46,847 bases of DNA from Escherichia phage vB_EcoS_AHP42. The notes under the pieces are model-generated. The model made no database searches, was not told the origin of the DNA, and saw only the letters and a list, made by a program, of their open reading frames with translations. Positions 1 to 46,341 of this stretch are shown here, piece by piece (positions within the stretch are counted from its first letter, which is position 1; each line of letters begins with the position of its first letter). The position numbers and the translations under genes are program-made. The DNA is taken from sequence record NC_024793.1; one strand, written 5' to 3'.

Positions 1-516
1 ATGTCAGAAGAGAAAAAGATTCACCAGAAGATTGGCAACTTCAAGGAGCTATACAATAAGAAGTATGGCGACATTGCCAATCTAAAGATTAACCACAGGT
101 ACACTCCTGAGCAGGTATTCGACATGGCCGTAAGGTATTTCAGCTGGGCTGAAGAGCAAGCGATTAAGGCCATTGAAACGGCGAGCTTTCAGGGTGTTGT
201 AACGGAAAACCTTGTTCATAAGCCACGAATATTTACGATAACTGGATTCCAACTTTTCTGCGGCGTTGGTCATAATGCCATCAGTAAATGGCGCTCTTCG
301 CCTGGATTTGATGAGGTGATGGAGTTTGTGGATTCGGTAATCTTTGAGCAGAAGTATCAGCTTGGCGTTAACAACATCGTCAACCCTGGACTGATTGGCA
401 AGGACTTAGGCATCGATAAGCCGCAAGAGGTTAACATCAACAATGCTTCCAATGCAGTAGTGAACGATGAGGAAGCTATGAAGGCTGCGCTTGAATCAAT
501 AGTTGATAAACTTTGA
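1..516 (+). CDS. putative terminase small subunit
   Basis: 171-aa ORF directly upstream of the large terminase; RBS AGGAGG is supplied by the window 3' end if the genome is circular. Function is from position and size only. Confidence 0.5.
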   Translation: MSEEKKIHQKIGNFKELYNKKYGDIANLKINHRYTPEQVFDMAVRYFSWAEEQAIKAIETASFQGVVTENLVHKPRIFTITGFQLFCGVGHNAISKWRSSPGFDEVMEFVDSVIFEQKYQLGVNNIVNPGLIGKDLGIDKPQEVNINNASNAVVNDEEAMKAALESIVDKL

Positions 517-531
517 TATGTTGATATAATT

Positions 532-560
532 ACCCCATTCAATAAACGAGTGGGGTTTTT
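532..560 (+). terminator. rho-independent terminator
   Basis: Hairpin ACCCCATTCAATAAACGAGTGGGGT followed by a T-run. Confidence 0.55.
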
Positions 561-561
561 T

Positions 562-1077
562 ATGTTAGATAGAGCGAAGCCTATGCCGCCTCTGGATTTT
601 CTTAGAGGAATTCTGAGTTACAATCCTGAAACGGGAAAGCTAACGTGGACATCAAAAGTAAGTAGCAAAACCATAATCGGATCCGAGGCTGGGACTTTGC
701 ACAAAGCTAGCGGTCGATATCAAGTACAGATACAAGGGAAGATATACAAGAGCTCAAGGATTGCATTTTATTTGTATTATGGCTTTGAGCCAGTTGGCGC
801 GGTTGACCACATAAATCGTGACCCATCAGACGATAGGATTTCTAATCTTAGGGATGCATCGCTTAGCCAAAACGGAATGAATAAGTCTATGATGAGCAAT
901 AATACATCTGGCTACAAAGGTGTTAGCTACTCAAAGAGAAGGAATGAGTATATTGCATATGTGAAAATAAATGGAAAAATGATGTTTGGAGGTTGGTTTA
1001 AGAAAAAAGAAGAAGCAGCAAAGGTGGCGGCATCAATGAGGGAGAGTATACATGGGGAGTTCTGCAATCATGAGTGA
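562..1077 (+). CDS. HNH endonuclease with AP2-like domain
   Basis: HNH motif DHINRDPSDDRISNLRDAS plus AP2-like GYKGVSYSKRRNEYIAYVKINGKMMFGGWF. The track start at 550 is a GTG inside the upstream terminator hairpin, so the ATG at 562 is used. Confidence 0.7.
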   Translation: MLDRAKPMPPLDFLRGILSYNPETGKLTWTSKVSSKTIIGSEAGTLHKASGRYQVQIQGKIYKSSRIAFYLYYGFEPVGAVDHINRDPSDDRISNLRDASLSQNGMNKSMMSNNTSGYKGVSYSKRRNEYIAYVKINGKMMFGGWFKKKEEAAKVAASMRESIHGEFCNHE

Positions 1078-2641
1078 AATAATTGTATGGGAAGACTTAA
1101 CATACCCAGAAAAGCTAGCTATAAAGGCACTATCAACTCATAGCTTCGAGGGTTTCTTAAGGGTGTGGTTTCAAATAAGTCAATCTGAGCGTTATATTCC
1201 TAACTGGCACCATAAGTACCTCTGTAGAATCATCGATGAGGTTATTAGCGGTCAACGCAGAGATACAATCATTAACGTAGCTCCCGGGGCCGGAAAAACC
1301 GAGATTACATCCATTCACTTCCCAGTATACTCAATGCTTAAACTAAAGAAGGTTCGCAATCTTAGCCTGTCATTCTCAGATAGCCTCGTGAAGCGTAACT
1401 CTAAACGGGTTCGTGACCTTATCAAATCGACAGAATTCCAGGAGTTGTGGCCCTGCAAGTTTGGCACATGTAAGGATGATGAGATTCAGGTTCTTGATGA
1501 TTCTGGTAAGGTTAAGTTTGAATCAATATCAAAAGCAATTGGCGGTCAGATTACAGGCGCTCGCGGTGGATATATTACAGATAACTATAGCGGCTGTTTG
1601 ATGCTTGATGATGTAGACAAAGCGGATGATATGTTCAGCAAAGTCAGGCGAGAGGCCGTGCACACTCTTCTCAAAAACACCATTCGCTCACGTAGGGCGA
1701 GTAGCGTTAAAGGTAAAGCTACGCCAATTCTGTCAATTCAGCAAAGGCTTCATACTCAGGATTCAACGTGGTTCATGACTTCTGGTGGTATGGGTATCGA
1801 CTTTGATGTAGTGAAGATACCGGCGCTGGTCACTGAAGAATATGTGAATGAACTCCCTGACTGGATTCGTGAGCAGTTCGAGAAGGACGTGCTTTCATCC
1901 GAGTACGTCGAGCGAGATGGTGTTAAGTATTACAGCTACTTCCCGCAGAAGGAATCTGTGCATGACTTGATGGCAATGTGGGACTCAGATCCGTACACAT
2001 TCCTAAGCCAGTACCAACAATCTCCAGTAGCTCTGGGTGGAAACCTGATCAACGTAGATTGGTTTGCTCGCCTCGATGAGAATAACAGGCCGCCAGTCAA
2101 GTATGACTACCGTTTCATTACGGCTGATACTGCCATGACCACTAAGAGTTATAGCGACTACTCAGTATTCCAGCTATGGGGGCGCAAAGATAACAGGCTT
2201 TATCTTCTGGATATGGTAAGGGGTAAATGGGAAGCACCTGAACTTGAGCAAACTCTTCTGGACTTTGAGGGTAAGCATAGAGCAGCTAGTAAGACAGATG
2301 GTATATTGCGCAAGGTTATTATCGAGAAGAAAGCGTCTGGAATAGGACTTATCCAGTCGGCGGGTCGGGTAATGCGAACTCCTATCGAGCCTTTCGTTCC
2401 AGATACAGATAAGTTAACCAGGGTGATGAGCGCACTGCCACAGATTAAAGCTGGTAACGTAGTTCTGCCTGACTCTGCGCCATGGCTTACCTCGCTATTA
2501 ACCGAGTTCTCGGCGTTCACTGCTGACGATTCTCATCCCCATGATGACATTGTGGATACGACAACAATGGCCATCAACTGTGAATTGAACTTGAGTGACG
2601 ATCCGAGAGCCCGCTTAATGAGGCTAGCTGGCGTTAAGTAA
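1052..2641 (+). CDS. terminase large subunit
   Basis: 529 aa with ATPase P-loop-like VAPGAGKTE and a C-terminal nuclease-like region; followed by a terminator. Start may be 1070, where ATGA overlaps the HNH stop. Confidence 0.85.
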   Translation: MGSSAIMSEIIVWEDLTYPEKLAIKALSTHSFEGFLRVWFQISQSERYIPNWHHKYLCRIIDEVISGQRRDTIINVAPGAGKTEITSIHFPVYSMLKLKKVRNLSLSFSDSLVKRNSKRVRDLIKSTEFQELWPCKFGTCKDDEIQVLDDSGKVKFESISKAIGGQITGARGGYITDNYSGCLMLDDVDKADDMFSKVRREAVHTLLKNTIRSRRASSVKGKATPILSIQQRLHTQDSTWFMTSGGMGIDFDVVKIPALVTEEYVNELPDWIREQFEKDVLSSEYVERDGVKYYSYFPQKESVHDLMAMWDSDPYTFLSQYQQSPVALGGNLINVDWFARLDENNRPPVKYDYRFITADTAMTTKSYSDYSVFQLWGRKDNRLYLLDMVRGKWEAPELEQTLLDFEGKHRAASKTDGILRKVIIEKKASGIGLIQSAGRVMRTPIEPFVPDTDKLTRVMSALPQIKAGNVVLPDSAPWLTSLLTEFSAFTADDSHPHDDIVDTTTMAINCELNLSDDPRARLMRLAGVK

Positions 2642-2653
2642 TCATGATAAACT

Positions 2654-2677
2654 GCCCCTTACTCAGGGGCTTTTTTA
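2654..2677 (+). terminator. rho-independent terminator
   Basis: GCCCCTT-ACTC-AGGGGC followed by TTTTTT. Confidence 0.7.
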
Positions 2678-2690
2678 TTGGAGAAATTAC

Positions 2691-3965
2691 ATGGTAAAAG
2701 CAGACAGCTACGCAAACATCTTTCTTAGCGGGAGTGATGGTAGTGAGGTTTACGGAAAGTTTGGCAGCCTTGGCCTAACAGCGCCAGCGCAGCTTGAGCA
2801 ACTTTATGTCAGCAGCGCTCTGGTTCGTCGAATTATTGATATCGTTCCAGAGGTCGCACTTGGCGCAGGCTTTAGTATTGAAGGTATCGACGACGAAGGT
2901 GCTTTCTGGTCGCGATGGGATGATTTAGGCCTTTCAGATAACGTAATCGACGCACTAGCCTGGGCGAGACTATACGGTGGCGCTGCTGTAGTGGCAATTG
3001 TGAAGGATGGAAGGGCGCTAACCAGCCCGGTTCGTGAAGGTGCGGAACTTGAAACAGTTCGCGTATACGACCGTCAGCAAATTAAGGTCCAGACTCGCGA
3101 GGAGAATCCACGTAACGCGCGTTTTGGTAAGCCATTAACTTACCGCATCACGCCAAACGGGTCGGCAACGTTCTACGATGTGCACTATACACGCTGTCAC
3201 ATCATTGATGGCGAGCGAGTACCTAACAACCTACGTCGTAATAACGATGGCTGGGGCGCAAGCGTACTAACTGGTGACTTAATTGACGCGATTGACGACT
3301 ATCAGAACTGTGAGCGACTGGCTACTCAGTTACTTCGTCGTAAACAGCAGGCGGTGTGGAAAGCAAAAGGCCTTGCTGACTTATGTGATGATTCAGATGG
3401 ATTTGGAGCAGCTCGTTTACGTCTGGCTCAGGTGGATAATAACAGTGGCGTTGGTCAGGCTATCGGGATTGACGCGGATAGTGAAGAGTACAACGTTCTC
3501 AACTCAGATATTGGCGGTATTGATACATTTCTGAGTCAGAAGTTCGATCGAATCGTTGCTCTGAGCGGTATTCATGAGATTATCCTTAAGGGTAAGAATG
3601 TTGGTGGTGTGTCAGCAAGCCAGAACACTGCTCTAGAGACTTTCTACGGTTATGTTGACCGTAAGCGCAAGGCTGAATTATTGCCTCTGCTTGAGTTCCT
3701 GCTGCCGTTCATCGTAACCGAGCAAGAGTGGTCAGTAGAATTTAACCCTCTATCGCAGGTTAGTGACAAGGATAAATCTGAGATTCTTGAGAAGAACGTC
3801 AATTCAGTTGCCGCATTGATTGCAGCTGGAATCATTGACGCAGACGAAGCAAGAGATACGTTGCGCGCAATTTCAACTGAGGTTAAGATTGGCGAAGGCT
3901 CAATTCAAACGGAGGTTGTAATTAATGAATCAGAAGACCCGCTGGATGTATCCGCAAATAATTGA
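2691..3965 (+). CDS. portal protein
   Basis: 424 aa directly after the large terminase; size and order are typical of a siphovirus portal. Confidence 0.75.
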   Translation: MVKADSYANIFLSGSDGSEVYGKFGSLGLTAPAQLEQLYVSSALVRRIIDIVPEVALGAGFSIEGIDDEGAFWSRWDDLGLSDNVIDALAWARLYGGAAVVAIVKDGRALTSPVREGAELETVRVYDRQQIKVQTREENPRNARFGKPLTYRITPNGSATFYDVHYTRCHIIDGERVPNNLRRNNDGWGASVLTGDLIDAIDDYQNCERLATQLLRRKQQAVWKAKGLADLCDDSDGFGAARLRLAQVDNNSGVGQAIGIDADSEEYNVLNSDIGGIDTFLSQKFDRIVALSGIHEIILKGKNVGGVSASQNTALETFYGYVDRKRKAELLPLLEFLLPFIVTEQEWSVEFNPLSQVSDKDKSEILEKNVNSVAALIAAGIIDADEARDTLRAISTEVKIGEGSIQTEVVINESEDPLDVSANN

Positions 3966-4689
3966 GAGCCAGATTAACCGCAGCCTTTTGGTTGCGGTAT
4001 CTGAACTTATTGAGCAAATGAAGTTATCTGCAAAGAGGCTAAAAATTGACACAGCGCAGGAGATTGAAGAGGAAGATTCAGACCTTTCAGATGTAATCTC
4101 AGCGCTGCTATCTGGTTTTGTTTCCACTCTGCCTGCGCTGGCACTAGCAATATATCGTTATAACTCGGCGCAATTCCTTAAGGTGGCCAACAACTCCGGA
4201 GGTAAGAATAATCCTGTAGTTCTTGCGCTAGGATTGTATGGTATTAACGCGGATGAACCATGGTGGCTCGACACCAGGAACTCCTGGATTGTTGGCACGC
4301 AGTTAAGTGCATCAAAGCTGCTAAACAACATCAAGGATGATTTCATAAACAACGCCATTACTGCGCAGGCTGGTAACACTGTTGACCTTGATGATAGATA
4401 CCGAATCTACAGAAAGAGAACAGCAAATATCGCTGCTGGAATTACAGGGTCTCTAAACTCAAACCTTATGCGGAGAAGGCTTGAAGATGCCGGTGTATCT
4501 CAGTATGTTTGGCGTGGTAGACTTGACGACAAAGAGCGACCATCTCACGTTCTGCGTGAGGGGGTTAGCTTTAAATCAGATGGTTCGGACGCTGGAAAAC
4601 TTGACGGCCTTGCGATATTCCCCGGTCAGCAATACGGGTGTCGTTGCTGGGCTGTTCCTAAATGGGAGAATTTAATTAATGAAGAGTAA
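3925..4689 (+). CDS. head morphogenesis protein (Mu F / SPP1 gp7-like)
   Basis: Overlaps the portal end; C-terminal GQQYGCRCWAV resembles the Mu-F-like minor head protein signature. Confidence 0.65.
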   Translation: MNQKTRWMYPQIIESQINRSLLVAVSELIEQMKLSAKRLKIDTAQEIEEEDSDLSDVISALLSGFVSTLPALALAIYRYNSAQFLKVANNSGGKNNPVVLALGLYGINADEPWWLDTRNSWIVGTQLSASKLLNNIKDDFINNAITAQAGNTVDLDDRYRIYRKRTANIAAGITGSLNSNLMRRRLEDAGVSQYVWRGRLDDKERPSHVLREGVSFKSDGSDAGKLDGLAIFPGQQYGCRCWAVPKWENLINEE

Positions 4690-5800
4690 AATGCGTTATG
4701 ATAGCGCCAAGGTAAAAGCCCGTTTCGATGAGAACGGTTTTCTCGTGGACACACCAGTGGTTGCTCGCGTAGGTGTACAAACCTACTATATGCCAGATGG
4801 TTCAGAGCGCCGAGAGTTCCGTCCGGCTTCAGAGGTTTTTAAAGCCGATTCGCTGCAAAGTTACCAGGGTAAGCCGCTTACTCTTGGTCACGTGGTTGTA
4901 AACTCTGAAAATGCTAAAGAGGTGGTTGTTGGTTCTGTATCTGGGTCAGCAATGCGTCAGGACTCGGCAGTGATTGTTCCTCTTACCGTTTACGACAAGG
5001 AAGCAATTGAGAAGGCCAAGTCTGGCGTTGCTGGTGAGCTCTCTGTTGGCTACAACACTGTTGACATTGAGTCTCCTGGCTGGGGTAGTAATGAAACGGG
5101 TGAGTACAAGCTTGATGGAGAGTACGCAAGCCAGGATGAGATTCCTGCTGATTGGGTACGCTTTGATGCGCTACAGACGAATATCGTTGTTAATCATATC
5201 GCACTCGTATATAAAGGTCGCGCAGGTATTGCTAAACTCAATCTGGACGCGGAACAGGAAAACCCGTATACTGATACCGTTCAATCAAATAAAGAGGATA
5301 AATTGATGATTAAGATTAAACTCGATGGCGAACAGGAGTTCGAAATCGCCCCGGAAGTTGCTAACCACATCGAAGCTGTTAAGGCAGATGCGGAGCAGGC
5401 TAAAGCCAAAGCTGACACTCTGGAAGCTGAGCGCGATGCACTGAAAGCTAAAGTTGATGGCATTCCTGCCGAAATCGAAGCTGCCGTAGCCAAAGCTAAA
5501 GCTGACGCTGATGAGCTGGCAACTCTGGTTGCAGTTGCCGCAGAAGCTGGCGTTAAATGTGACGGCCTGGATGCTAAAGCAATCAAAGTTGCTTACGTTA
5601 AAGAAGTCTCTGGCCTGGATGTTTCTGAGAAATCTGACGCGTATATTGACGCAGCGTTCGACATTGCCAAAGAATCTGATAAAATGGCTGAAGTTCGTAA
5701 GGCTACCGTAGCCTCTGATAAATCTGACAGCAAAGAAGAGTTGACGCTTATTGATCCGCGCGCTCGAATTGCTAAAGCTAAATCCAATAAGGAGAAATAA
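4679..5800 (+). CDS. putative prohead protease / scaffold protein
   Basis: N-terminal globular half followed by an Ala/Lys/Glu-rich coiled-coil-like half (AKAKADTLEAERDALKAKVD); sits between the portal/head genes and the capsid gene. Confidence 0.5.
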   Translation: MKSKMRYDSAKVKARFDENGFLVDTPVVARVGVQTYYMPDGSERREFRPASEVFKADSLQSYQGKPLTLGHVVVNSENAKEVVVGSVSGSAMRQDSAVIVPLTVYDKEAIEKAKSGVAGELSVGYNTVDIESPGWGSNETGEYKLDGEYASQDEIPADWVRFDALQTNIVVNHIALVYKGRAGIAKLNLDAEQENPYTDTVQSNKEDKLMIKIKLDGEQEFEIAPEVANHIEAVKADAEQAKAKADTLEAERDALKAKVDGIPAEIEAAVAKAKADADELATLVAVAAEAGVKCDGLDAKAIKVAYVKEVSGLDVSEKSDAYIDAAFDIAKESDKMAEVRKATVASDKSDSKEELTLIDPRARIAKAKSNKEK

Positions 5801-5802
5801 TA

Positions 5803-6297
5803 ATGGCATTTCGTCAAGCAGCATTAGCGGGTATGGTATCTGATACCTCTCTTTACAATATCGATGGCGCGTGCGTTCTAGGTGGCACCGATCAGGTGCA
5901 GGTTGGTCAGGCAGTTGGTGTTAGCGAAGTTGAAGTTACTGGAACTAGCTCATCTGGTGCAGGTCATAAAACTGTAGTTGGTTCTGGCATTACGACCGCT
6001 AACGTTTATGGTGTTGCTGTTCGCTCGCATTATGAAGCTGTTGATGGCTTCTATCGACCGCAAGAGGCAATTAACGTAATGACGGCTGGTAGAATCTGGA
6101 TGAAAACCACACTGTCAGCAGCGCCTGCATTCGGAACTGCAATCACTCTTGATGCGACTGGAATTGTTGTTTCTAGCGGCGCTGTTGAGCCAGCTGGTTG
6201 GACTTTCGCAGGTGGCTTCATTGCTGGCACTGCGGTGCAGGGTCAGCCAGAACCTTATGATGGCGCACTGATTGAAGTTCAGGTTAAGCAGAAATAA
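5803..6297 (+). CDS. putative head decoration or capsid-associated protein
   Basis: 164 aa, Gly/Ala/Val/Thr-rich, coupled to the scaffold gene stop and followed by a strong terminator. Confidence 0.4.
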   Translation: MAFRQAALAGMVSDTSLYNIDGACVLGGTDQVQVGQAVGVSEVEVTGTSSSGAGHKTVVGSGITTANVYGVAVRSHYEAVDGFYRPQEAINVMTAGRIWMKTTLSAAPAFGTAITLDATGIVVSSGAVEPAGWTFAGGFIAGTAVQGQPEPYDGALIEVQVKQK

Positions 6298-6313
6298 TTA
6301 ACCGTGTAAATAT

Positions 6314-6336
6314 AACCCGCTTCGGCGGGTTTTTTA
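6314..6336 (+). terminator. rho-independent terminator
   Basis: CCCGC-TTCG-GCGGG tetraloop hairpin followed by TTTTTT. Confidence 0.75.
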
Positions 6337-6391
6337 TTGCCAAAATTCTGTTACAATCATTAAGACTATTAACCGATATGGAGTAAATGAA

Positions 6392-6865
6392 ATGGCTTTA
6401 GAGTTTATGGAAGTTGTAGCTAAGACTTACGGCGACCTGGAGAGGTTAGTAAAGGCAAAAATGCTGGAAGGATGGATGCCATTTGATAGCTTAATTAACA
6501 ATAGATTTACTATCGCAATTGTTATGGTTAAGGGTAGTGATGCGCAGCTTACCGACTTTAGGATTCTCGGTGATAGCACTAGAGTTAAATTAATAAGCAA
6601 GGCTAACAAATTAATTGCTGATGACCCTGAGTGGGAGGTTTTCGGTCACCCTCAAATATTTGGCGCTGACGATTACATAGTTTCATTATCAAAAGGCTTT
6701 AAGGGAACTACTGGTAGGGATGGCATGGCTGGCCCACAAGGACCGCAAGGACCGCGCGGCGAAGTTGGCCCACAAGGTCCGCAGGGTGAAAAAGGAGATA
6801 CTGGACCTCAGGGACTAAAAGGTGATAAAGGTGATAAGGGTGATCCAGGAGCGCTCGTAACATGA
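6392..6865 (+). CDS. collagen-like repeat protein
   Basis: C-terminal run of about 15 G-X-Y triplets ([40 protein letters not shown]). Ends at a TGA that is in frame with the next ORF. Confidence 0.6.
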
Positions 6866-6901
6866 AAAAAATTTAACCTAGTTAACACAGTTGGTTCAGG
6901 G

Positions 6902-7276
6902 GTGGACACTCAATTCCCTGGTATAGCTAACACTTGGTTTAGGGTGCAAGTAACATCATCATCAAGATTTACATTCTTTGCTCTAAAGGAAGGGTCTGGA
7001 ACAACAAGCATTGATGGCGACGTTAAGTACAACGATGAGGATGATACTTATCGCAGGGTTAAGTATTCTGGAGTGTTCACATCGGCATCGAACTACACAT
7101 TTATTAACACAGGATTCGGCGTGACCTCAGCTAGATGTGTAGAGTTTTACACCTATCTAAATGATGGCTCTAGTGGTTATTTTTACAGGGTTGAGGTTTT
7201 CATTGCTGGCAGGCCTGCATTTACCACAATTACACAACCAGACTTCACCGTTAGAATAACAAGACTTGATGCCTAA
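6902..7276 (+). CDS. hypothetical protein, possible readthrough extension of the collagen-like protein
   Basis: Same frame as 6392..6865 with only one TGA between them; GTG start and no clear Shine-Dalgarno; same AGG/AGA-rich codon usage as the upstream ORF. Confidence 0.4.
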   Translation: MDTQFPGIANTWFRVQVTSSSRFTFFALKEGSGTTSIDGDVKYNDEDDTYRRVKYSGVFTSASNYTFINTGFGVTSARCVEFYTYLNDGSSGYFYRVEVFIAGRPAFTTITQPDFTVRITRLDA

Positions 7277-7356
7277 ACTTTATCACCCGCCATTGCGCGG
7301 TCTTAAAACTCGTGTATAATGTCAACGTACACAGTTAACCAAAAGGATAAATAGGA

Positions 7357-8301
7357 ATGACTATTAAGCTAGATGCTTTCGAGCAGAACAAAATCACCGA
7401 ACACCTGCGTAACATGGGTGTTGAAAAAGCTGATGCAGCTGGCATTTGGACCATCAAACAGCTGACTCAGACGCTTAACCGTAACTACGATCGCGAATAT
7501 GCTGAAACGTCTGTAGTTAACCTGTTCCCGGTCACTAACGAAATTGGCGCTTACGCTAAATACTTCGAATACGGCGAAATGGATGGTGTTGGCTTAGCTC
7601 AGATTGTAGCTGATTATTCAGATGATTTGCCGACGGTTGATGCACTGATGCAAGAGAAGCAAGGTAAGGTGTTCCGTTTTGGTAATGCATTCCTGGTTTC
7701 CATCGATGAGATTGCGGCTGGCGCAGCTACTGGTCAATCACTGTCTTCTCGCAAACAGGCTCTTGCATTCGAAGCTCATGACAACCTGCTTGATAAGCTG
7801 GTTTGGAAAGGCTCCGCACCTCACGGCATTAAGTCTGTATTCGATTACGACAACGTAAACCAGGTAGTTCCAAGCGGCGCATGGACTACAGCACAGACTG
7901 CTTACGCTGACGTTAATAGCCTGCTGGATATTATCGAAACAGCAACCCAAGGCATCCATCGAGCTAACAGGCTGCTTCTTCCGGCATCCGCTCGTCGAGT
8001 AATGCAAACTCTGGTCCCGAATACTGGTATTAGCTACTTTGAGTTCTTTGCCCGTAACAACAATGGCGTACAGGTGGAGTTCCTGCAACTCCTTGACAAC
8101 TACGATGGCGCAAACGGCAAGGCTGCAATTGCTTATGAGTACGACCCATTGAACATGAGCATTGAGATTCCAGAAGCTACTCACGTCCTTCCAGCTCAAC
8201 CGAAGGATTTGCACTTCAAGTTTCCTGTAACCTCCAAGTCTACTGGCCTGGTTATCTACCGACCTCTGACCGTTGCAGTAATGAAAGGTATCACCTTCTA
8301 A
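7357..8301 (+). CDS. major capsid protein
   Basis: 314 aa with its own TATAAT-containing upstream region and a strong terminator after it; position is typical of the major capsid gene. Confidence 0.65.
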   Translation: MTIKLDAFEQNKITEHLRNMGVEKADAAGIWTIKQLTQTLNRNYDREYAETSVVNLFPVTNEIGAYAKYFEYGEMDGVGLAQIVADYSDDLPTVDALMQEKQGKVFRFGNAFLVSIDEIAAGAATGQSLSSRKQALAFEAHDNLLDKLVWKGSAPHGIKSVFDYDNVNQVVPSGAWTTAQTAYADVNSLLDIIETATQGIHRANRLLLPASARRVMQTLVPNTGISYFEFFARNNNGVQVEFLQLLDNYDGANGKAAIAYEYDPLNMSIEIPEATHVLPAQPKDLHFKFPVTSKSTGLVIYRPLTVAVMKGITF

Positions 8302-8306
8302 TAAAT

Positions 8307-8331
8307 AGCCCTCTTCGGAGGGCTTTTTTAC
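8307..8331 (+). terminator. rho-independent terminator after the major capsid gene
   Basis: AGCCCTC-TTCG-GAGGGCT followed by TTTTTT. Confidence 0.8.
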
Positions 8332-8391
8332 GTCTGTACTAAATGAATCATAAAGTATATAATTCATTTATAGACTAAACAGGAGGAAAGA

Positions 8392-8640
8392 ATGATTAAG
8401 TTAGAACACGTTGGTGCTTGCCTTATTCGATTTGCTGGAAATGATTACCTGCCAGGACAAGTCATTGAAGTAGAAGAGTTGAATGACGGTTTTAAGCGAT
8501 TGATTGCTGAGGGTCGACTTGAGGTAATGGAAGACCGCAAGGCAACCAAGAAAGTAATTGAAGAAATTGAAAGCAAGAAGGTTAAAAAGAAAGAACCAAA
8601 GACTGTAGACGAAGCTGAAAACGGCGGCGAGTACAAGTAA
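8392..8640 (+). CDS. hypothetical head-associated protein
   Basis: 82 aa with good RBS (AGGAGGAAAGA-ATG) and Lys/Glu-rich C-terminus; bounded by terminators. Confidence 0.5.
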   Translation: MIKLEHVGACLIRFAGNDYLPGQVIEVEELNDGFKRLIAEGRLEVMEDRKATKKVIEEIESKKVKKKEPKTVDEAENGGEYK

Positions 8641-8686
8641 CCAACACGGACGCTTTAGAGCGTCCTTTTTTGTATGGAGATATAAA

Positions 8687-9088
8687 ATGAATGAAGAAGT
8701 AATCGCATATATAAGGCAGCTGTACCCCCCACTTAACAATCAGCCTGATGATGTTCTTAATGCATGGATTGAGGTAGCTAAGCTGTTTATCTGCCTGGAT
8801 AAGTTTGGTGACAAGCAGGTTCAGGCATTAGCTTTCTACACTCTTCACTTGCTTAGTCAGGATATTGCGCTTAAGACTGAGAATGATTCAAGCCAGACAT
8901 CCTCTGACCGGGTTAAGTCCTACTCACTTTCAGGAGAGTACACGATTAGCTATGATACCAGCACTGCTGCCGCGAGCTCATCTAACCTTGAAGCATCCTC
9001 ATGGGGTAAGCTTTACATTGATTTGATGCGTCGCAAGGTTGGCCGCTGGGGTTTGATTACTTCTGGTGGGTCGAGGTGCTGCCGATGA
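8687..9088 (+). CDS. putative head-tail connector (gp6-like)
   Basis: 133 aa, first gene of the neck cluster after the capsid gene. Confidence 0.45.
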   Translation: MNEEVIAYIRQLYPPLNNQPDDVLNAWIEVAKLFICLDKFGDKQVQALAFYTLHLLSQDIALKTENDSSQTSSDRVKSYSLSGEYTISYDTSTAAASSSNLEASSWGKLYIDLMRRKVGRWGLITSGGSRCCR

Positions 9089-9453
9089 ATCATGCATTTT
9101 TGCAGCAGCAAATTAAGGCTGGTATTAATCTCCTGTCAGATGGCGATGGCGTTTTCGAAGCCACGACACAGCCAACCATCTCTATCGTGAATGGCTACGA
9201 AGTGCGCACGCCTGGCACTTCATATACAGTGCGAGGTGTTATACGTGAATTCAAGGCGCGAGACATTGACGGTGACATCATCAAATTCGGTGACCGTCGC
9301 GGAATTTTTACTACTGATTCAGTTGTATCGGAAGGTGACCGCATTTACATTGACCAGGAAGCATACACAGTAATAGACCCGCGACCAGTGAAGCCAACCG
9401 GTACGGTAATCGCCTACAGGCCAGTGCTACGGAGGGCTGCAACTTATGGCTAA
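9076..9453 (+). CDS. putative head-tail joining protein
   Basis: 125 aa, overlaps neighbours on both sides in the neck gene cluster. Confidence 0.4.
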   Translation: MLPMNHAFLQQQIKAGINLLSDGDGVFEATTQPTISIVNGYEVRTPGTSYTVRGVIREFKARDIDGDIIKFGDRRGIFTTDSVVSEGDRIYIDQEAYTVIDPRPVKPTGTVIAYRPVLRRAATYG

Positions 9454-9874
9454 TGATAACCTGCTATTTAAGCTAAAGATTAATGATTGGGCCGATTCAG
9501 TAATGGAGGCGATTCCTGAGATTATTGATGATGCCCTTGATAACGCAGCTAGGGATATCGTTAAGTTGTCTCCTGTTGATACTGGAAGGTTTAGAGGTAA
9601 CTGGCAAGCTACAGGAAACAGGCCATCACTGATTGGTTTGAACAACTATGACAAGGATGGGGCTGATACAATTAAGTCACTAAGAAGGCAAATCCACGCT
9701 CTAGCTAGAGATAAGGCTACGCATACAATCTATATCACCAATGCGCTAACGTATGCGTTACCATTGGAGTTCGGTTATTCTGGTCAGGCACCAAACGGGG
9801 TACTTGGTATCGTCACTAAGAGGCTTGGTTTTTACTTTAATGACGCTATAAGGAAAAAGTCCAATGCACTATGA
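9446..9874 (+). CDS. putative neck/tail component (HK97 gp10-like)
   Basis: 142 aa containing SPVDTGRFRGNW, reminiscent of the HK97 gp10 family. Confidence 0.5.
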   Translation: MANDNLLFKLKINDWADSVMEAIPEIIDDALDNAARDIVKLSPVDTGRFRGNWQATGNRPSLIGLNNYDKDGADTIKSLRRQIHALARDKATHTIYITNALTYALPLEFGYSGQAPNGVLGIVTKRLGFYFNDAIRKKSNAL

Positions 9875-46265: not shown

Positions 46266-46341
46266 GTTCTGCTGGCGTAACAGGATAACGCAGAGACCTC
46301 CTAAGTCTCAGTTGCTGGTTCGAGTCCAGCGCAGAACGCCA
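46266..46341 (+). tRNA. tRNA-Arg (anticodon CCT, reads AGG)
   Basis: Hand-folded 76-nt cloverleaf: 7-bp acceptor stem GTTCTGC/GCAGAAC, U8, D-stem GCGT/ACGC with GG in the D-loop, anticodon stem GAGAC/GTCTC, loop CTCCTAA, T-stem GCTGG/CCAGC, T-loop TTCGAGT, discriminator G and encoded CCA. Confidence 0.85.

What the first reader, a model, noticed from the sequence alone, without database searches (positions are those of the whole stretch)
6392..7276. Collagen-like ORF and the next ORF are one frame separated by a single TGA: possible programmed readthrough
ORF 6392..6865 ends in about 15 G-X-Y collagen triplets and stops at TGA 6863..6865, followed by an A7 run. The next ORF, 6902..7276, is in the same frame with no other stop between, has a GTG start and no convincing Shine-Dalgarno. 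Both halves share AGG/AGA-rich codon usage. Low-level readthrough or a sequencing error would give a roughly 295-aa collagen-stalk protein with a globular C-terminal domain, perhaps a capsid or tail decoration fibre.
Basis: seen in the sequence. Interest (0 to 1): 0.6.

Follow-up and report, generated by a model that had tools for sequence, protein, structure and literature searches.

The report
Collagen-like phage fibre gene, point-broken
The two ORFs are one gene for a collagen-stalked phage fibre that, in this isolate alone, carries a TGG-to-TGA change (a real null or leaky mutation, or a base-call error), so this is an ordinary broken gene and not programmed readthrough.

Summary
ORF 6392-6865 (157 aa, about 18 G-X-Y triplets) and ORF 6902-7276 share a frame and are separated only by TGA 6863-6865. 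The window is E. coli O157 phage vB_EcoS_AHP42 (Rogunavirus, 46,847 bp).

The stop is not conserved. In AHP24, AKS96, BECP10 and AHS24, and in a contig only 83% identical in the C-terminal domain, the codon is TGG (Trp). A 512-aa homolog also has Trp there. AHP24, AKS96 and BECP10 are annotated as one ORF of 294 or 282 aa. TGA is an ordinary stop elsewhere in the phage, no RNA structure follows it, and no other frame bypasses it.

Programmed readthrough is therefore not supported. The TGA is a derived G-to-A change at the edge of an A-run. It is either a real opal allele of a dispensable gene or an error in a 23x 454 assembly. If real, passive Trp-tRNA misreading (about 2% in K-12) would restore the wild-type protein at trace level.

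The gene is broken in other ways in two further records: a +1 G in AHS24 and an in-frame TAA in contig L007. The phiJLA23 copy is unreadable because of Ns.

The protein has a conserved N-domain that tracks the capsid gene, a collagen stalk and a swappable beta-sandwich head. Its function is untested. It most likely forms a non-essential trimeric head fibre, analogous to SPP1 gp12.

The parts
6314..6338 (+). Rho-independent terminator closing the upstream head operon (after the cement-protein gene 5803-6297)
   Evidence: Hairpin AACCCGCTTCGGCGGGTT followed by a T-run found by the scan; annotated as a terminator in the AHP24, AHS24 and AKS96 records; the hairpin is conserved upstream of the homologous gene in L007, phiJLA23, MM01 and AN_ECEAS.
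6349..6357 (+). Extended -10-like element TGtTACAAT; putative own promoter of the collagen-like gene (inferred)
   Evidence: Read from the sequence. The TGnTAnAnT block is kept at the same place in MM01 (TGaTACAAT), AN_ECEAS (TGaTAGAAT), L007 and phiJLA23 (TGtTAGACT). It was not found by the two-hexamer scan because no -35 element lies at a proper spacing. Function not tested.
6380..6383 (+). Shine-Dalgarno GGAG, 8 nt before the ATG at 6392
   Evidence: Sequence; GGAG is conserved in all five aligned upstream regions.
6392..7276 (+). The whole gene: collagen-like fibre protein, 294 codons plus stop, interrupted here by one opal codon
   Evidence: Identical DNA apart from one base is annotated as a single CDS 6392..7276 in AHP24 and AKS96. 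The exact look-up shows that the window's two pieces are AHP42 AHI60554.1 and AHI60555.1, and that the full-length form P0006 is in the same 90% cluster.
6392..6706 (+). N-terminal domain (residues 1-105): two tandem beta-alpha-beta-beta units; inferred virion-attachment domain
6695..6856 (+). Collagen-like G-X-Y region (residues 102-155, about 18 triplets, KGD-rich at its C-terminal end)
   Evidence: Pfam PF01391 E = 1.3e-9; G-X-Y run 102-155. Its length varies among relatives: BECP10 lacks 4 triplets, and UDF157lw, MM01 and P0005 have more than 70 triplets in two blocks.
6863..6865 (+). In-frame TGA; TGG (Trp158, first residue of the C-terminal domain) in every relative; G-to-A at 6865 extends A6 to A7
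   Evidence: Alignment of the window with AHP24, AHS24 and BECP10; AKS96 differs from the window at one base in 1051 and carries one CDS. Trp is also present in L007 (...SIVKWKKFNLVN) and in P0005 (...GALVTWKKFNLVN). It is one of only 4 substitutions between the window and AHP24 in the first 13.6 kb.
6866..7273 (+). C-terminal domain (136 aa): all-beta sandwich; inferred distal, exchangeable ligand-binding head
7313..7320 (+). TGTATAAT extended -10 element ahead of the major capsid gene (7357-8301); marks the downstream end of the collagen-gene unit
   Evidence: Sequence. A promoter is annotated over 7280-7320 in AKS96 and at the equivalent 7281-7321 in AHS24. Capsid protein PF09950 E = 3.5e-40.

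Best explanation
Region 6392-7276 is a single gene for a trimeric collagen-stalked fibre. It has an N-terminal attachment domain, about 18 G-X-Y triplets and a C-terminal beta-sandwich head. It lies between the capsid cement gene and the major capsid gene of E. coli O157 phage AHP42. In this isolate only, the Trp158 codon TGG has become TGA through a G-to-A change at the edge of an A-run. I take this most likely to be a real spontaneous nonsense allele in a dispensable accessory gene. Translation then mostly ends after the collagen stalk and gives a headless 157-aa product. The downstream 124-codon ORF is not a separately initiated gene. At most a trace of full-length, wild-type protein arises by passive misreading of UGA by Trp-tRNA. 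Nothing is programmed. Shown: one gene, a derived and non-conserved stop, and no recoding signals. Inferred: that the change is real rather than a base-call error, that the gene is dispensable, that the protein forms trimers, and that it attaches to the capsid.
For: One gene: AHP24 and AKS96 carry the same 1051 bases with one mismatch and annotate one CDS of 294 aa; BECP10 annotates 282 aa. Derived stop: TGG in AHP24, AHS24 and BECP10 and in L007, whose C-terminal domain is 83% identical; Trp in the 512-aa P0005. No recoding apparatus: the downstream fold is no better than shuffles (z = -0.22); there is no Rfam hit near the stop; TGA ends 9 of the 46 largest ORFs. By my reading of the sequence, both other frames hit TAA within a few codons. 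No independent start: GTG 6902 lacks a spaced Shine-Dalgarno sequence, and no other start codon lies between 6866 and 6902. Dispensability: all four sister phages, two with an intact gene and two with a split gene, are highly lytic; AHP24 and AHS24 have identical host-range rows; virion SDS-PAGE patterns are identical. The gene is independently broken by a +1 G in AHS24 and by an in-frame TAA in L007, where AugustePiccard has Glu. Real rather than artefact: 454 errors are mainly homopolymer indels (my own knowledge), and this is a length-preserving substitution that would need a G2 undercall and an A6 overcall together in the consensus. A base next to a run changing into the run's base is the classic misalignment ('dislocation') mutation (my own knowledge). 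Leak: UGA readthrough by Trp-tRNA competing with RF2 is about 2% at 37 C and 4% at 25 C in E. coli K-12 (PMC10570021). The inserted residue would be the wild-type Trp.
Against: The record comes from 454 GS-FLX+ reads at only 23.4x, the lowest coverage of the four phages, and the changed base sits at a G2/A6 homopolymer junction. AHS24, sequenced in the same pooled library, has a typical homopolymer-type +1 G in the same gene, and phiJLA23 has Ns there, so the region is error-prone. The identical SDS-PAGE patterns are equally expected if all four phages really have an intact gene. No reads are available to decide. Dispensability, trimerisation and capsid attachment are inferred from analogy and comparative patterns, not measured.
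Confidence: 0.55

Rival explanations
1. Base-call or assembly artefact. The AHP42 phage really has TGGAAAAAA like its sisters, and the deposited TGAAAAAAA is a consensus error of the low-coverage 454/Newbler assembly. The gene is then intact, and no biology attaches to the stop.
For: 454 GS-FLX+ Titanium with Newbler 2.5.3 at 23.4x coverage, the lowest of the four phages. The change lies at the junction of a G2 and an A6 homopolymer. AHS24 from the same pooled run has a +1 G in a G-run 20 nt upstream. The only indel between the window and AHP24 in 13.6 kb is also in a G-run, at 11648. SDS-PAGE banding is identical in all four phages.
Against: It is a substitution that keeps the length, so two opposite homopolymer miscalls would have to dominate the consensus together (inference from how pyrosequencing errs, my own knowledge). 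An independent nonsense codon (TAA replacing GAA) in the homologous gene of contig L007 shows that broken alleles do occur in other data.
Confidence: 0.35
2. Programmed or selected readthrough. The UGA-A context is maintained to make mostly a 157-aa stalk protein and a minor fraction of full-length fibre, as Q-beta does for its A1 protein.
For: UGA is the leakiest stop in E. coli and is read by Trp-tRNA. From my own knowledge (Engelberg-Kulka 1981, not retrievable here), an A after UGA is a classical leaky context. The two ORFs are in frame with no second stop.
Against: The stop is absent from every relative, even those differing at 1 base in 1051, so there is no conservation, which is the hallmark of programmed recoding. 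No downstream structure. No Rfam element. The other disruptions of the gene are of different kinds and at different places: a frameshift in AHS24 and a TAA in L007. That is not what a tuned readthrough site would look like.
Confidence: 0.03
3. Two real, separately expressed genes: a 157-aa collagen protein and a 124-aa protein started at GTG 6902.
For: GenBank annotates AHP42 this way (AHI60554.1 and AHI60555.1). PHROGs holds separate families for the two pieces (phrog_22681 and phrog_31616).
Against: Those PHROG families match the split fragments end to end (profile lengths 157 and 148), and the intact 294-aa protein matches both as well as the full-length family phrog_5073. There is no spaced Shine-Dalgarno sequence before the GTG. 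The C-terminal domain is fused to a collagen stalk wherever an intact copy is known. The reading frame is continuous in sister phages.
Confidence: 0.02

Closest known systems
Intact alleles of the same gene: AHP24_08 / AKS96_08 (AHI60476.1 / AHI60711.1, 294 aa) and the BECP10 'collagen-like protein' (QQM15547.1, 282 aa)
   Same: The same locus, with DNA 99.5-99.9% identical over 6300-7350 and the same N-domain, stalk and C-domain.
   Different: They have TGG where the window has TGA. BECP10 also lacks four G-X-Y triplets. None has been characterised experimentally: they are labelled 'hypothetical protein', or 'tail fiber' in UniRef.
Longer Drexlerviridae collagen-repeat proteins in the same slot: UDF157lw (514 aa), MM01 and Phagiculus (513 aa), e4/1c (505 aa), AN_ECEAS (486 aa), AugustePiccard Bas01 (477 aa); PHROG 5073 'tail fiber protein'
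   Same: The same position between the cement protein and the capsid protein, a homologous N-domain (29-99% identity), collagen repeats, and a C-terminal beta-rich domain that aligns loosely. phrog_5073 matches at E = 3.8e-63.
   Different: They carry two long collagen blocks separated by a CBM_5_12-like insert (Pfam E = 3.4e-4, below the curated cut-off) and mostly have other C-domain types. The 'tail fiber' label is annotation by collagen similarity, not a tested function.
Bacillus phage SPP1 gp12, a collagen-like capsid accessory protein
   Same: A collagen-like, trimeric, non-essential protein encoded immediately upstream of the major capsid gene in a siphophage head module (gene order 11 scaffold, 12, 13 capsid). 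It binds expanded capsids (PMC6316719; PMC7602432). It fits the position of the gene here and its apparent dispensability.
   Different: gp12 has only 64 aa and no globular N- or C-domains. No sequence comparison could be run here. Capsid binding of the AHP42 protein is inferred, not shown.
EHEC prophage collagen-like side-tail-fibre proteins (EPclA/EPclB: PfN-PCoil-Col-PfC)
   Same: A phage-encoded dumbbell: an N-terminal attachment domain, a collagen triple helix and a C-terminal trimerising, cell-binding domain, with modules shuffled among phages. The C-terminal domain nucleates refolding of the helix (PMC3368898).
   Different: No PfN (PF08400), PfC (PF06820) or Pf2 domain is detected here; Pfam finds only Collagen. 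The gene sits in the head module, not the tail module.
Q-beta coat/A1 and other programmed UGA readthrough
   Same: An in-frame UGA followed by A, readable by Trp-tRNA (from my own knowledge; the Trp-tRNA versus RF2 competition is).
   Different: Programmed sites are conserved and the extension is functionally required. Here the stop is a singleton among near-identical genomes.

Membership tests
Programmed stop-codon readthrough (recoding) site | The stop codon is conserved at the same position in related genomes | tested here: not met
   TGG in AHP24, AHS24 and BECP10; AKS96 carries one CDS; TGG in L007; Trp in P0005. An exact-pattern scan allowing TGA or TGG found only AHS24 in IMG/VR and nothing in JGI metagenomes.
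Programmed stop-codon readthrough (recoding) site | A stimulatory context or RNA structure 3' of the stop | tested here: not met
   Fold of 6855-6975: -21.2 kcal/mol against a shuffle mean of -20.6, z = -0.22. No Rfam match near 6863. Only the generic UGA-A context is present.
Programmed stop-codon readthrough (recoding) site | A measured readthrough product at a defined ratio | not testable with these tools
   The published proteomics of the four phages identified seven proteins from gel bands, none of them ORF08 or ORF09.
Alternative genetic code (TGA as a sense codon) | TGA is avoided as a terminator and found in frame in conserved genes | tested here: not met
   9 of the 46 largest ORFs end in TGA, including terminase small subunit and portal. 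The only tRNA is Arg(CCT).
Collagen triple-helix repeat proteins (Pfam PF01391) | An uninterrupted run of Gly-X-Y triplets scoring above the Pfam gathering threshold | tested here: met
   38.1 bits against a cut-off of 27.2, E = 1.3e-9, residues 102-153; 18 consecutive triplets.
Collagen triple-helix repeat proteins (Pfam PF01391) | Formation of a trimeric triple helix | not testable with these tools
   Inferred from EPclA and SPP1 gp12, which are trimers.
Drexlerviridae head-module collagen-repeat protein (PHROG 5073) | A homologous N-terminal domain followed by collagen repeats and a C-terminal beta domain | tested here: met
   phrog_5073 E = 3.8e-63 for the intact form. The N-domain is 29-99% identical to members. 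Multiple alignment A2.
Drexlerviridae head-module collagen-repeat protein (PHROG 5073) | Position between the cement-protein gene and the major capsid gene | tested here: met
   Window: cement PF22758 at 5803-6297 and capsid PF09950 at 7357-8301. The same order holds in UDF157lw, MM01, e4/1c, AN_ECEAS, Phagiculus, AugustePiccard and L007.
SPP1 gp12-type capsid decoration protein | Binds the surface of expanded capsids as a trimer | not testable with these tools
   Only indirect support: synteny with the SPP1 gene order 11-12-13 and co-segregation of the N-domain with the capsid gene.
SPP1 gp12-type capsid decoration protein | Sequence homology to gp12 | not tested
EHEC prophage collagen-like tail-fibre proteins (EPclA type) | Presence of PfN (PF08400) and PfC (PF06820) or Pf2 (PF03406) domains | tested here: not met
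   The Pfam scan of the intact 294-aa protein at E <= 0.1 returns only Collagen.

The most novel reading that the evidence does not exclude
The TGA is real and is not simply a dead allele. Because UGA followed by A is misread by Trp-tRNA, and Trp is the ancestral residue, AHP42 would make trace amounts of perfectly wild-type fibre. The three independent lesions in this gene (opal in AHP42, +1 G in AHS24, ochre in contig L007) would then reflect recurrent selection to switch the head fibre down or off during growth on particular hosts. That would be a crude, mutation-based on/off or dosage control of a capsid adhesin.
Probability: 0.07. Interest if true: 0.45.

Novelty: already known. Interest (0 to 1): 0.12.

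Why it matters
The main value is for curation. The AHP42 record (AHI60554.1 and AHI60555.1) splits one gene into two. RefSeq names the first piece 'DNA polymerase', and two PHROG families (22681 'DNA polymerase' and 31616) are built from such fragments, so the error spreads to new annotations.

Rogunaviruses and related Drexlerviridae carry an uncharacterised fibre gene between the cement gene and the capsid gene. It has its own terminator and promoter-like signals, its anchor domain tracks the capsid gene, and its distal domain is swapped like a cassette. It appears dispensable in culture. If it is a head fibre with an exchangeable glycan-binding tip, it could affect adsorption, behaviour in mucus or the gut, or the use of these O157 biocontrol phages. 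That remains to be tested.

Tried and rejected
1. Genetic-code reassignment was rejected: TGA is a normal terminator here.

2. Frameshifting or transcriptional slippage at the A-run was rejected. The run begins with the A of TGA, so slippage leaves the stop in place, and both other frames hit TAA within a few codons (my reading of the sequence).

3. Readthrough-stimulating RNA structure: none found. The sub-threshold Rfam hits at 6216-6380 are all driven by the upstream terminator hairpin.

6. The word-indexed protein search with the N-domain returned nothing. The exhaustive HMMER search found only 9 representatives, several of them cut at contig ends, so they could not be used to estimate how often the gene is truncated.

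The domains were modelled separately.

8. Pattern scans of IMG/VR and JGI metagenomes for the junction, allowing TGA or TGG, found only AHS24 itself.

9. Literature: no paper links collagen-like proteins with Drexlerviridae. The BECP10 paper does not discuss the gene. The SPP1 gp12 primary paper is not held.

10. NCBIfam gives only sub-threshold collagen-adhesin hits through the repeats.

Full report
**Identity of the window.** The window is the complete genome of Escherichia phage vB_EcoS_AHP42 (Drexlerviridae, Rogunavirus). Its two ORFs match AHP42 proteins AHI60554.1 (157 aa) and AHI60555.1 (124 aa) exactly, on a 46,847-bp contig. The published genome size is 46,847 bp (Niu et al. 2014, PMC4070988). 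The genome was sequenced with Roche 454 GS-FLX+ Titanium and assembled with Newbler at 23.4x, the lowest coverage of four sister phages.

**Check of the observation.**
- ORF 6392-6865 encodes 157 aa, and residues 102-155 form 18 consecutive G-X-Y triplets (Pfam Collagen, E = 1.3e-9).
- It stops at TGA 6863-6865.
- ORF 6902-7276 is in the same frame, and the 12 codons between them contain no stop.
- The A-run is A7 only if the A of TGA is counted.
- GTG 6902 has no properly spaced Shine-Dalgarno sequence, whereas ATG 6392 has GGAG 8 nt upstream.
- The codon remark also holds: 13 of 15 Arg codons in the two halves are AGA or AGG, against 41 of 138 in 11 neighbouring structural genes (Fisher p = 2.6e-5). 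The phage encodes tRNA-Arg(CCT).

**What the stop codon is.** A megablast of 6300-7350 finds four close relatives.
- AHP24 and AKS96 are 99.9% identical over the stretch, that is, one mismatch in 1051 bases.
- AHS24 is 99.8% identical and BECP10 is 99.5% identical.
- AHP24 and AKS96 annotate 6392..7276 as one CDS of 294 aa; BECP10 annotates one 'collagen-like protein' of 282 aa.
- The alignment shows that the single mismatch is the stop itself. The window reads ACA TGA AAA where AHP24, AHS24 and BECP10 read ACA TGG AAA.
- The Trp is also present in a Logan contig (L007) whose C-terminal domain is only 83% identical (...SIVKWKKFNLVN).
- It is present again in a 512-aa homolog with a different N-domain and a much longer stalk (...GALVTWKKFNLVN).
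- Over the first 13.6 kb, the window and AHP24 differ by only four substitutions and one G-run indel. The nonsense change is one of the four.

The TGA is therefore a derived singleton in a nearly clonal group, not a conserved feature.

**Tests for recoding.** All four tests were negative.
- TGA ends 9 of the 46 largest ORFs, including terminase small subunit and portal, so the genetic code is standard.
- The 121 nt around and after the stop fold no better than shuffled sequence (z = -0.22).
- Rfam finds nothing there. Its only sub-threshold hits lie on the upstream terminator.
- Slippage on the A-run cannot remove the stop, because the run begins with the stop's own A. Both other frames meet TAA within a few codons (my reading of the sequence).

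Only stop-codon misreading could give full-length protein. UGA misreading by Trp-tRNA in competition with RF2 runs at about 2% (37 C) to 4% (25 C) in E. coli K-12 (PMC10570021). The residue inserted would be the ancestral Trp, so any leak would yield wild-type protein, but at trace level. From my own knowledge, non-K-12 strains such as O157 have a more active RF2, so the leak should be smaller in the natural host.

**Real mutation or artefact.** This cannot be settled without reads.
- For an artefact: the assembly is low-coverage 454 data and the changed base lies at a G2/A6 homopolymer junction. AHS24 from the same pooled run has a +1 G in a G-run 20 nt upstream that splits the gene differently. 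The phiJLA23 record has Ns and a frame break in its collagen stretch. SDS-PAGE patterns of the four phages are identical.
- For a real mutation: the change preserves length. A pyrosequencing error would need an undercall of G2 and an overcall of A6 together in the consensus, whereas one G-to-A transition that extends a run is a classic misalignment-type mutation (both points from my own knowledge).
- Also for a real mutation: an independent nonsense codon occurs in the homologous gene of contig L007. There a TAA occupies the X position of a G-X-Y triplet, where phage AugustePiccard has Glu (GGGGEPGPIGPKG against GGVG*PGPIGPKG), and the frame continues to the normal end.

I put a real allele at roughly 0.55-0.6 and an artefact at roughly 0.35. 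In either case the two ORFs are one gene and nothing is programmed.

**What the gene is.** It is a self-contained unit.
- Upstream lie a conserved rho-independent terminator (6314-6338), an extended -10-like TGtTACAAT (6349-6357) and GGAG (6380-6383). These are kept in L007, phiJLA23, MM01 and AN_ECEAS.
- Downstream, the capsid gene has its own TGTATAAT (7313-7320).
- The gene lies between a capsid cement protein (PF22758, E = 2e-21) and the major capsid protein (PF09950, E = 3.5e-40).
- The same slot holds a 477-514-aa collagen-repeat protein in UDF157lw, MM01, Phagiculus, e4/1c, AN_ECEAS and AugustePiccard.
- In AugustePiccard the slot also holds a 'putative head outer capsid protein'.

The protein has three parts.
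- The N-domain (residues 1-105) is modelled with high confidence (pLDDT 92.7) as two tandem beta-alpha-beta-beta units. It has no informative PDB neighbour. The same fold occurs at the N-terminus of the JK06, Rogue1 and phiJLA23 proteins. The family is tiny, with 9 representatives among 1.84 billion proteins.
- The collagen stalk varies in length among relatives.

**Module pattern.** Identity of the N-domain follows identity of the capsid protein:
- AHP42 and UDF157lw: 99% (N-domain) and 99% (capsid).
- MM01 and e4/1c: 95% and 97%.
- AugustePiccard and L007: 94% and 93%.

The C-domain pairs differently:
- AHP42 and L007: 83%.
- UDF157lw and MM01: 92%.
- e4/1c and AugustePiccard: 96%.

This holds even though the C-domain coding region is the part next to the capsid gene. 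It is the pattern expected for a fibre whose N-terminus docks on the particle and whose distal tip is exchanged as a cassette, with recombination in the collagen repeats.

**Mechanism proposed (inferred).** I propose a trimeric collagen-stalk fibre, anchored by the N-domain and most likely sitting on the capsid, that presents a beta-sandwich tip, possibly glycan-binding.
- The closest functional analogue is SPP1 gp12. It is a non-essential collagen-like trimer that binds expanded capsids, and it is encoded between the scaffold gene and the capsid gene (PMC6316719; PMC7602432).
- The architecture resembles the EHEC prophage collagen-like fibre EPclA. In EPclA the C-terminal domain trimerises and nucleates the helix (PMC3368898). 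None of its Pfam domains is present here.
- If the C-domain has the same nucleating role here, the 157-aa product of AHP42 would fail to trimerise and the allele would be effectively null.
- Dispensability fits the data. AHP24 (intact) and AHS24 (frameshifted) have identical host-range rows, and all four phages are highly lytic.
- The proteomics of that paper did not detect the protein in any of the four phages, but only seven Coomassie bands were analysed.

**Verdict.** The reading that the two ORFs are one collagen-stalk protein with a globular C-terminal domain is supported. The reading that the stop is a programmed readthrough site is not supported. This is an ordinary point-disrupted gene, or a record error, in a published genome whose sister records already show the intact ORF. 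Interest is low.

The side results worth keeping are the propagated mis-annotation ('DNA polymerase' in RefSeq and in PHROG 22681) and the modular anatomy of an uncharacterised, probably head-associated, fibre family in Drexlerviridae.

Noticed in passing
window 6392-6865; AHS24 6392-6844; phiJLA23 KC333879 15326-15823 (-): The truncated N-terminal fragments of this gene are named 'DNA polymerase' (RefSeq YP_009056524.1 and AHS24_08) or 'putative DNA polymerase I' (phiJLA23 JLA_18). PHROG 22681 ('DNA polymerase', 157 positions) and PHROG 31616 (148 positions) match the split fragments end to end. This is an annotation error that is being propagated.
   Followed up: partly
window 6841-6843 (GGG); L002 (AHS24), about 3042-3045: AHS24 keeps the TGG but has GGGG instead of GGG in ...GATAAGGGTGAT..., so the same gene is split by a +1 frameshift into 150-aa and 148-aa ORFs. 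This could be a typical 454 homopolymer miscall or a second independent lesion.
   Followed up: partly
L007 1127-1129 (Logan SRR22535154 contig, 24,291 bp): The homologous gene has an in-frame TAA in the X position of a G-X-Y triplet, where AugustePiccard has GAA (Glu). The frame continues without a break to the normal stop at 1732. This is an independent nonsense lesion in the same gene family.
   Followed up: partly
L012 (phiJLA23 KC333879) 15320-15500, minus strand: The collagen-repeat stretch of the deposited phiJLA23 genome contains many N bases and is out of frame, leaving 400 nt unannotated before the capsid gene. The downstream frame encodes a C-domain ending ...IEVVRLDA, similar to the window's ...RITRLDA.
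   Followed up: yes
window 6392-6706 versus 6866-7273 versus 7357-8301, with loci L003, L007, L008, L009, L010 and L014: Cassette shuffling: N-domain identity tracks capsid-protein identity (99/99, 95/97, 94/93%), whereas the C-domain groups the phages differently (83, 92, 96%). P0005 joins an MM01-type N-domain and long stalk to the window-type C-domain.
   Followed up: yes
window 6392-7276 and 46266-46341: 13 of 15 Arg codons in the gene are AGA or AGG, against 30% in neighbouring structural genes (p = 2.6e-5). The N- and C-domain coding parts are also AT-richer (40-41% GC) than the genome (44%). The phage's single tRNA is Arg(CCT), which reads AGG. ORF 9446-9874 is likewise 9/9 AGR.
   Followed up: partly
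window 6298-6394 and 7277-7359: The collagen-like gene and the capsid gene are each preceded by a hairpin and an extended -10-like TGnTAnAAT element (6349-6357 and 7313-7320). The block upstream of the collagen gene (terminator, TGnTAnAnT, ATTAACC, GGAG) is conserved across phages whose coding sequences are only 30-40% identical.
   Followed up: partly
L014 (AugustePiccard MZ501051) 315-1604; L008 (MM01) 1857-2417; L009 (e4/1c) 1838-2419: The slot between the cement gene and the collagen-like gene holds extra, variable ORFs in other Drexlerviridae, including a 429-aa 'putative head outer capsid protein' in AugustePiccard. This suggests a hot spot for capsid accessory genes.
   Followed up: no
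window 1-13983 versus AHP24 (L006): There are only four substitutions and one G-run indel (11648) in the first 13.6 kb. An abrupt mosaic boundary then begins at about 13,630 inside the tape-measure gene, with 44 differences in 350 bp.
   Followed up: no
L001 (BECP10), about 2930-2960, corresponding to window 6746-6781: BECP10 lacks 36 nt, which is four G-X-Y triplets ([12 protein letters not shown]), between direct GPQGPQG repeats. This shows repeat-mediated length change of the stalk.
   Followed up: partly
L003 (UDF157lw) residues 213-249 of the 514-aa protein; also MM01, e4/1c, AN_ECEAS and AugustePiccard: The long versions carry a small insert between two collagen blocks (GLTFRGQW...YFAV...WVVLAAQG) with a sub-threshold match to carbohydrate-binding module CBM_5_12 (E = 3.4e-4, 21 bits against a cut-off of 26.2). 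The insert is absent from the short AHP42-type protein.
   Followed up: no
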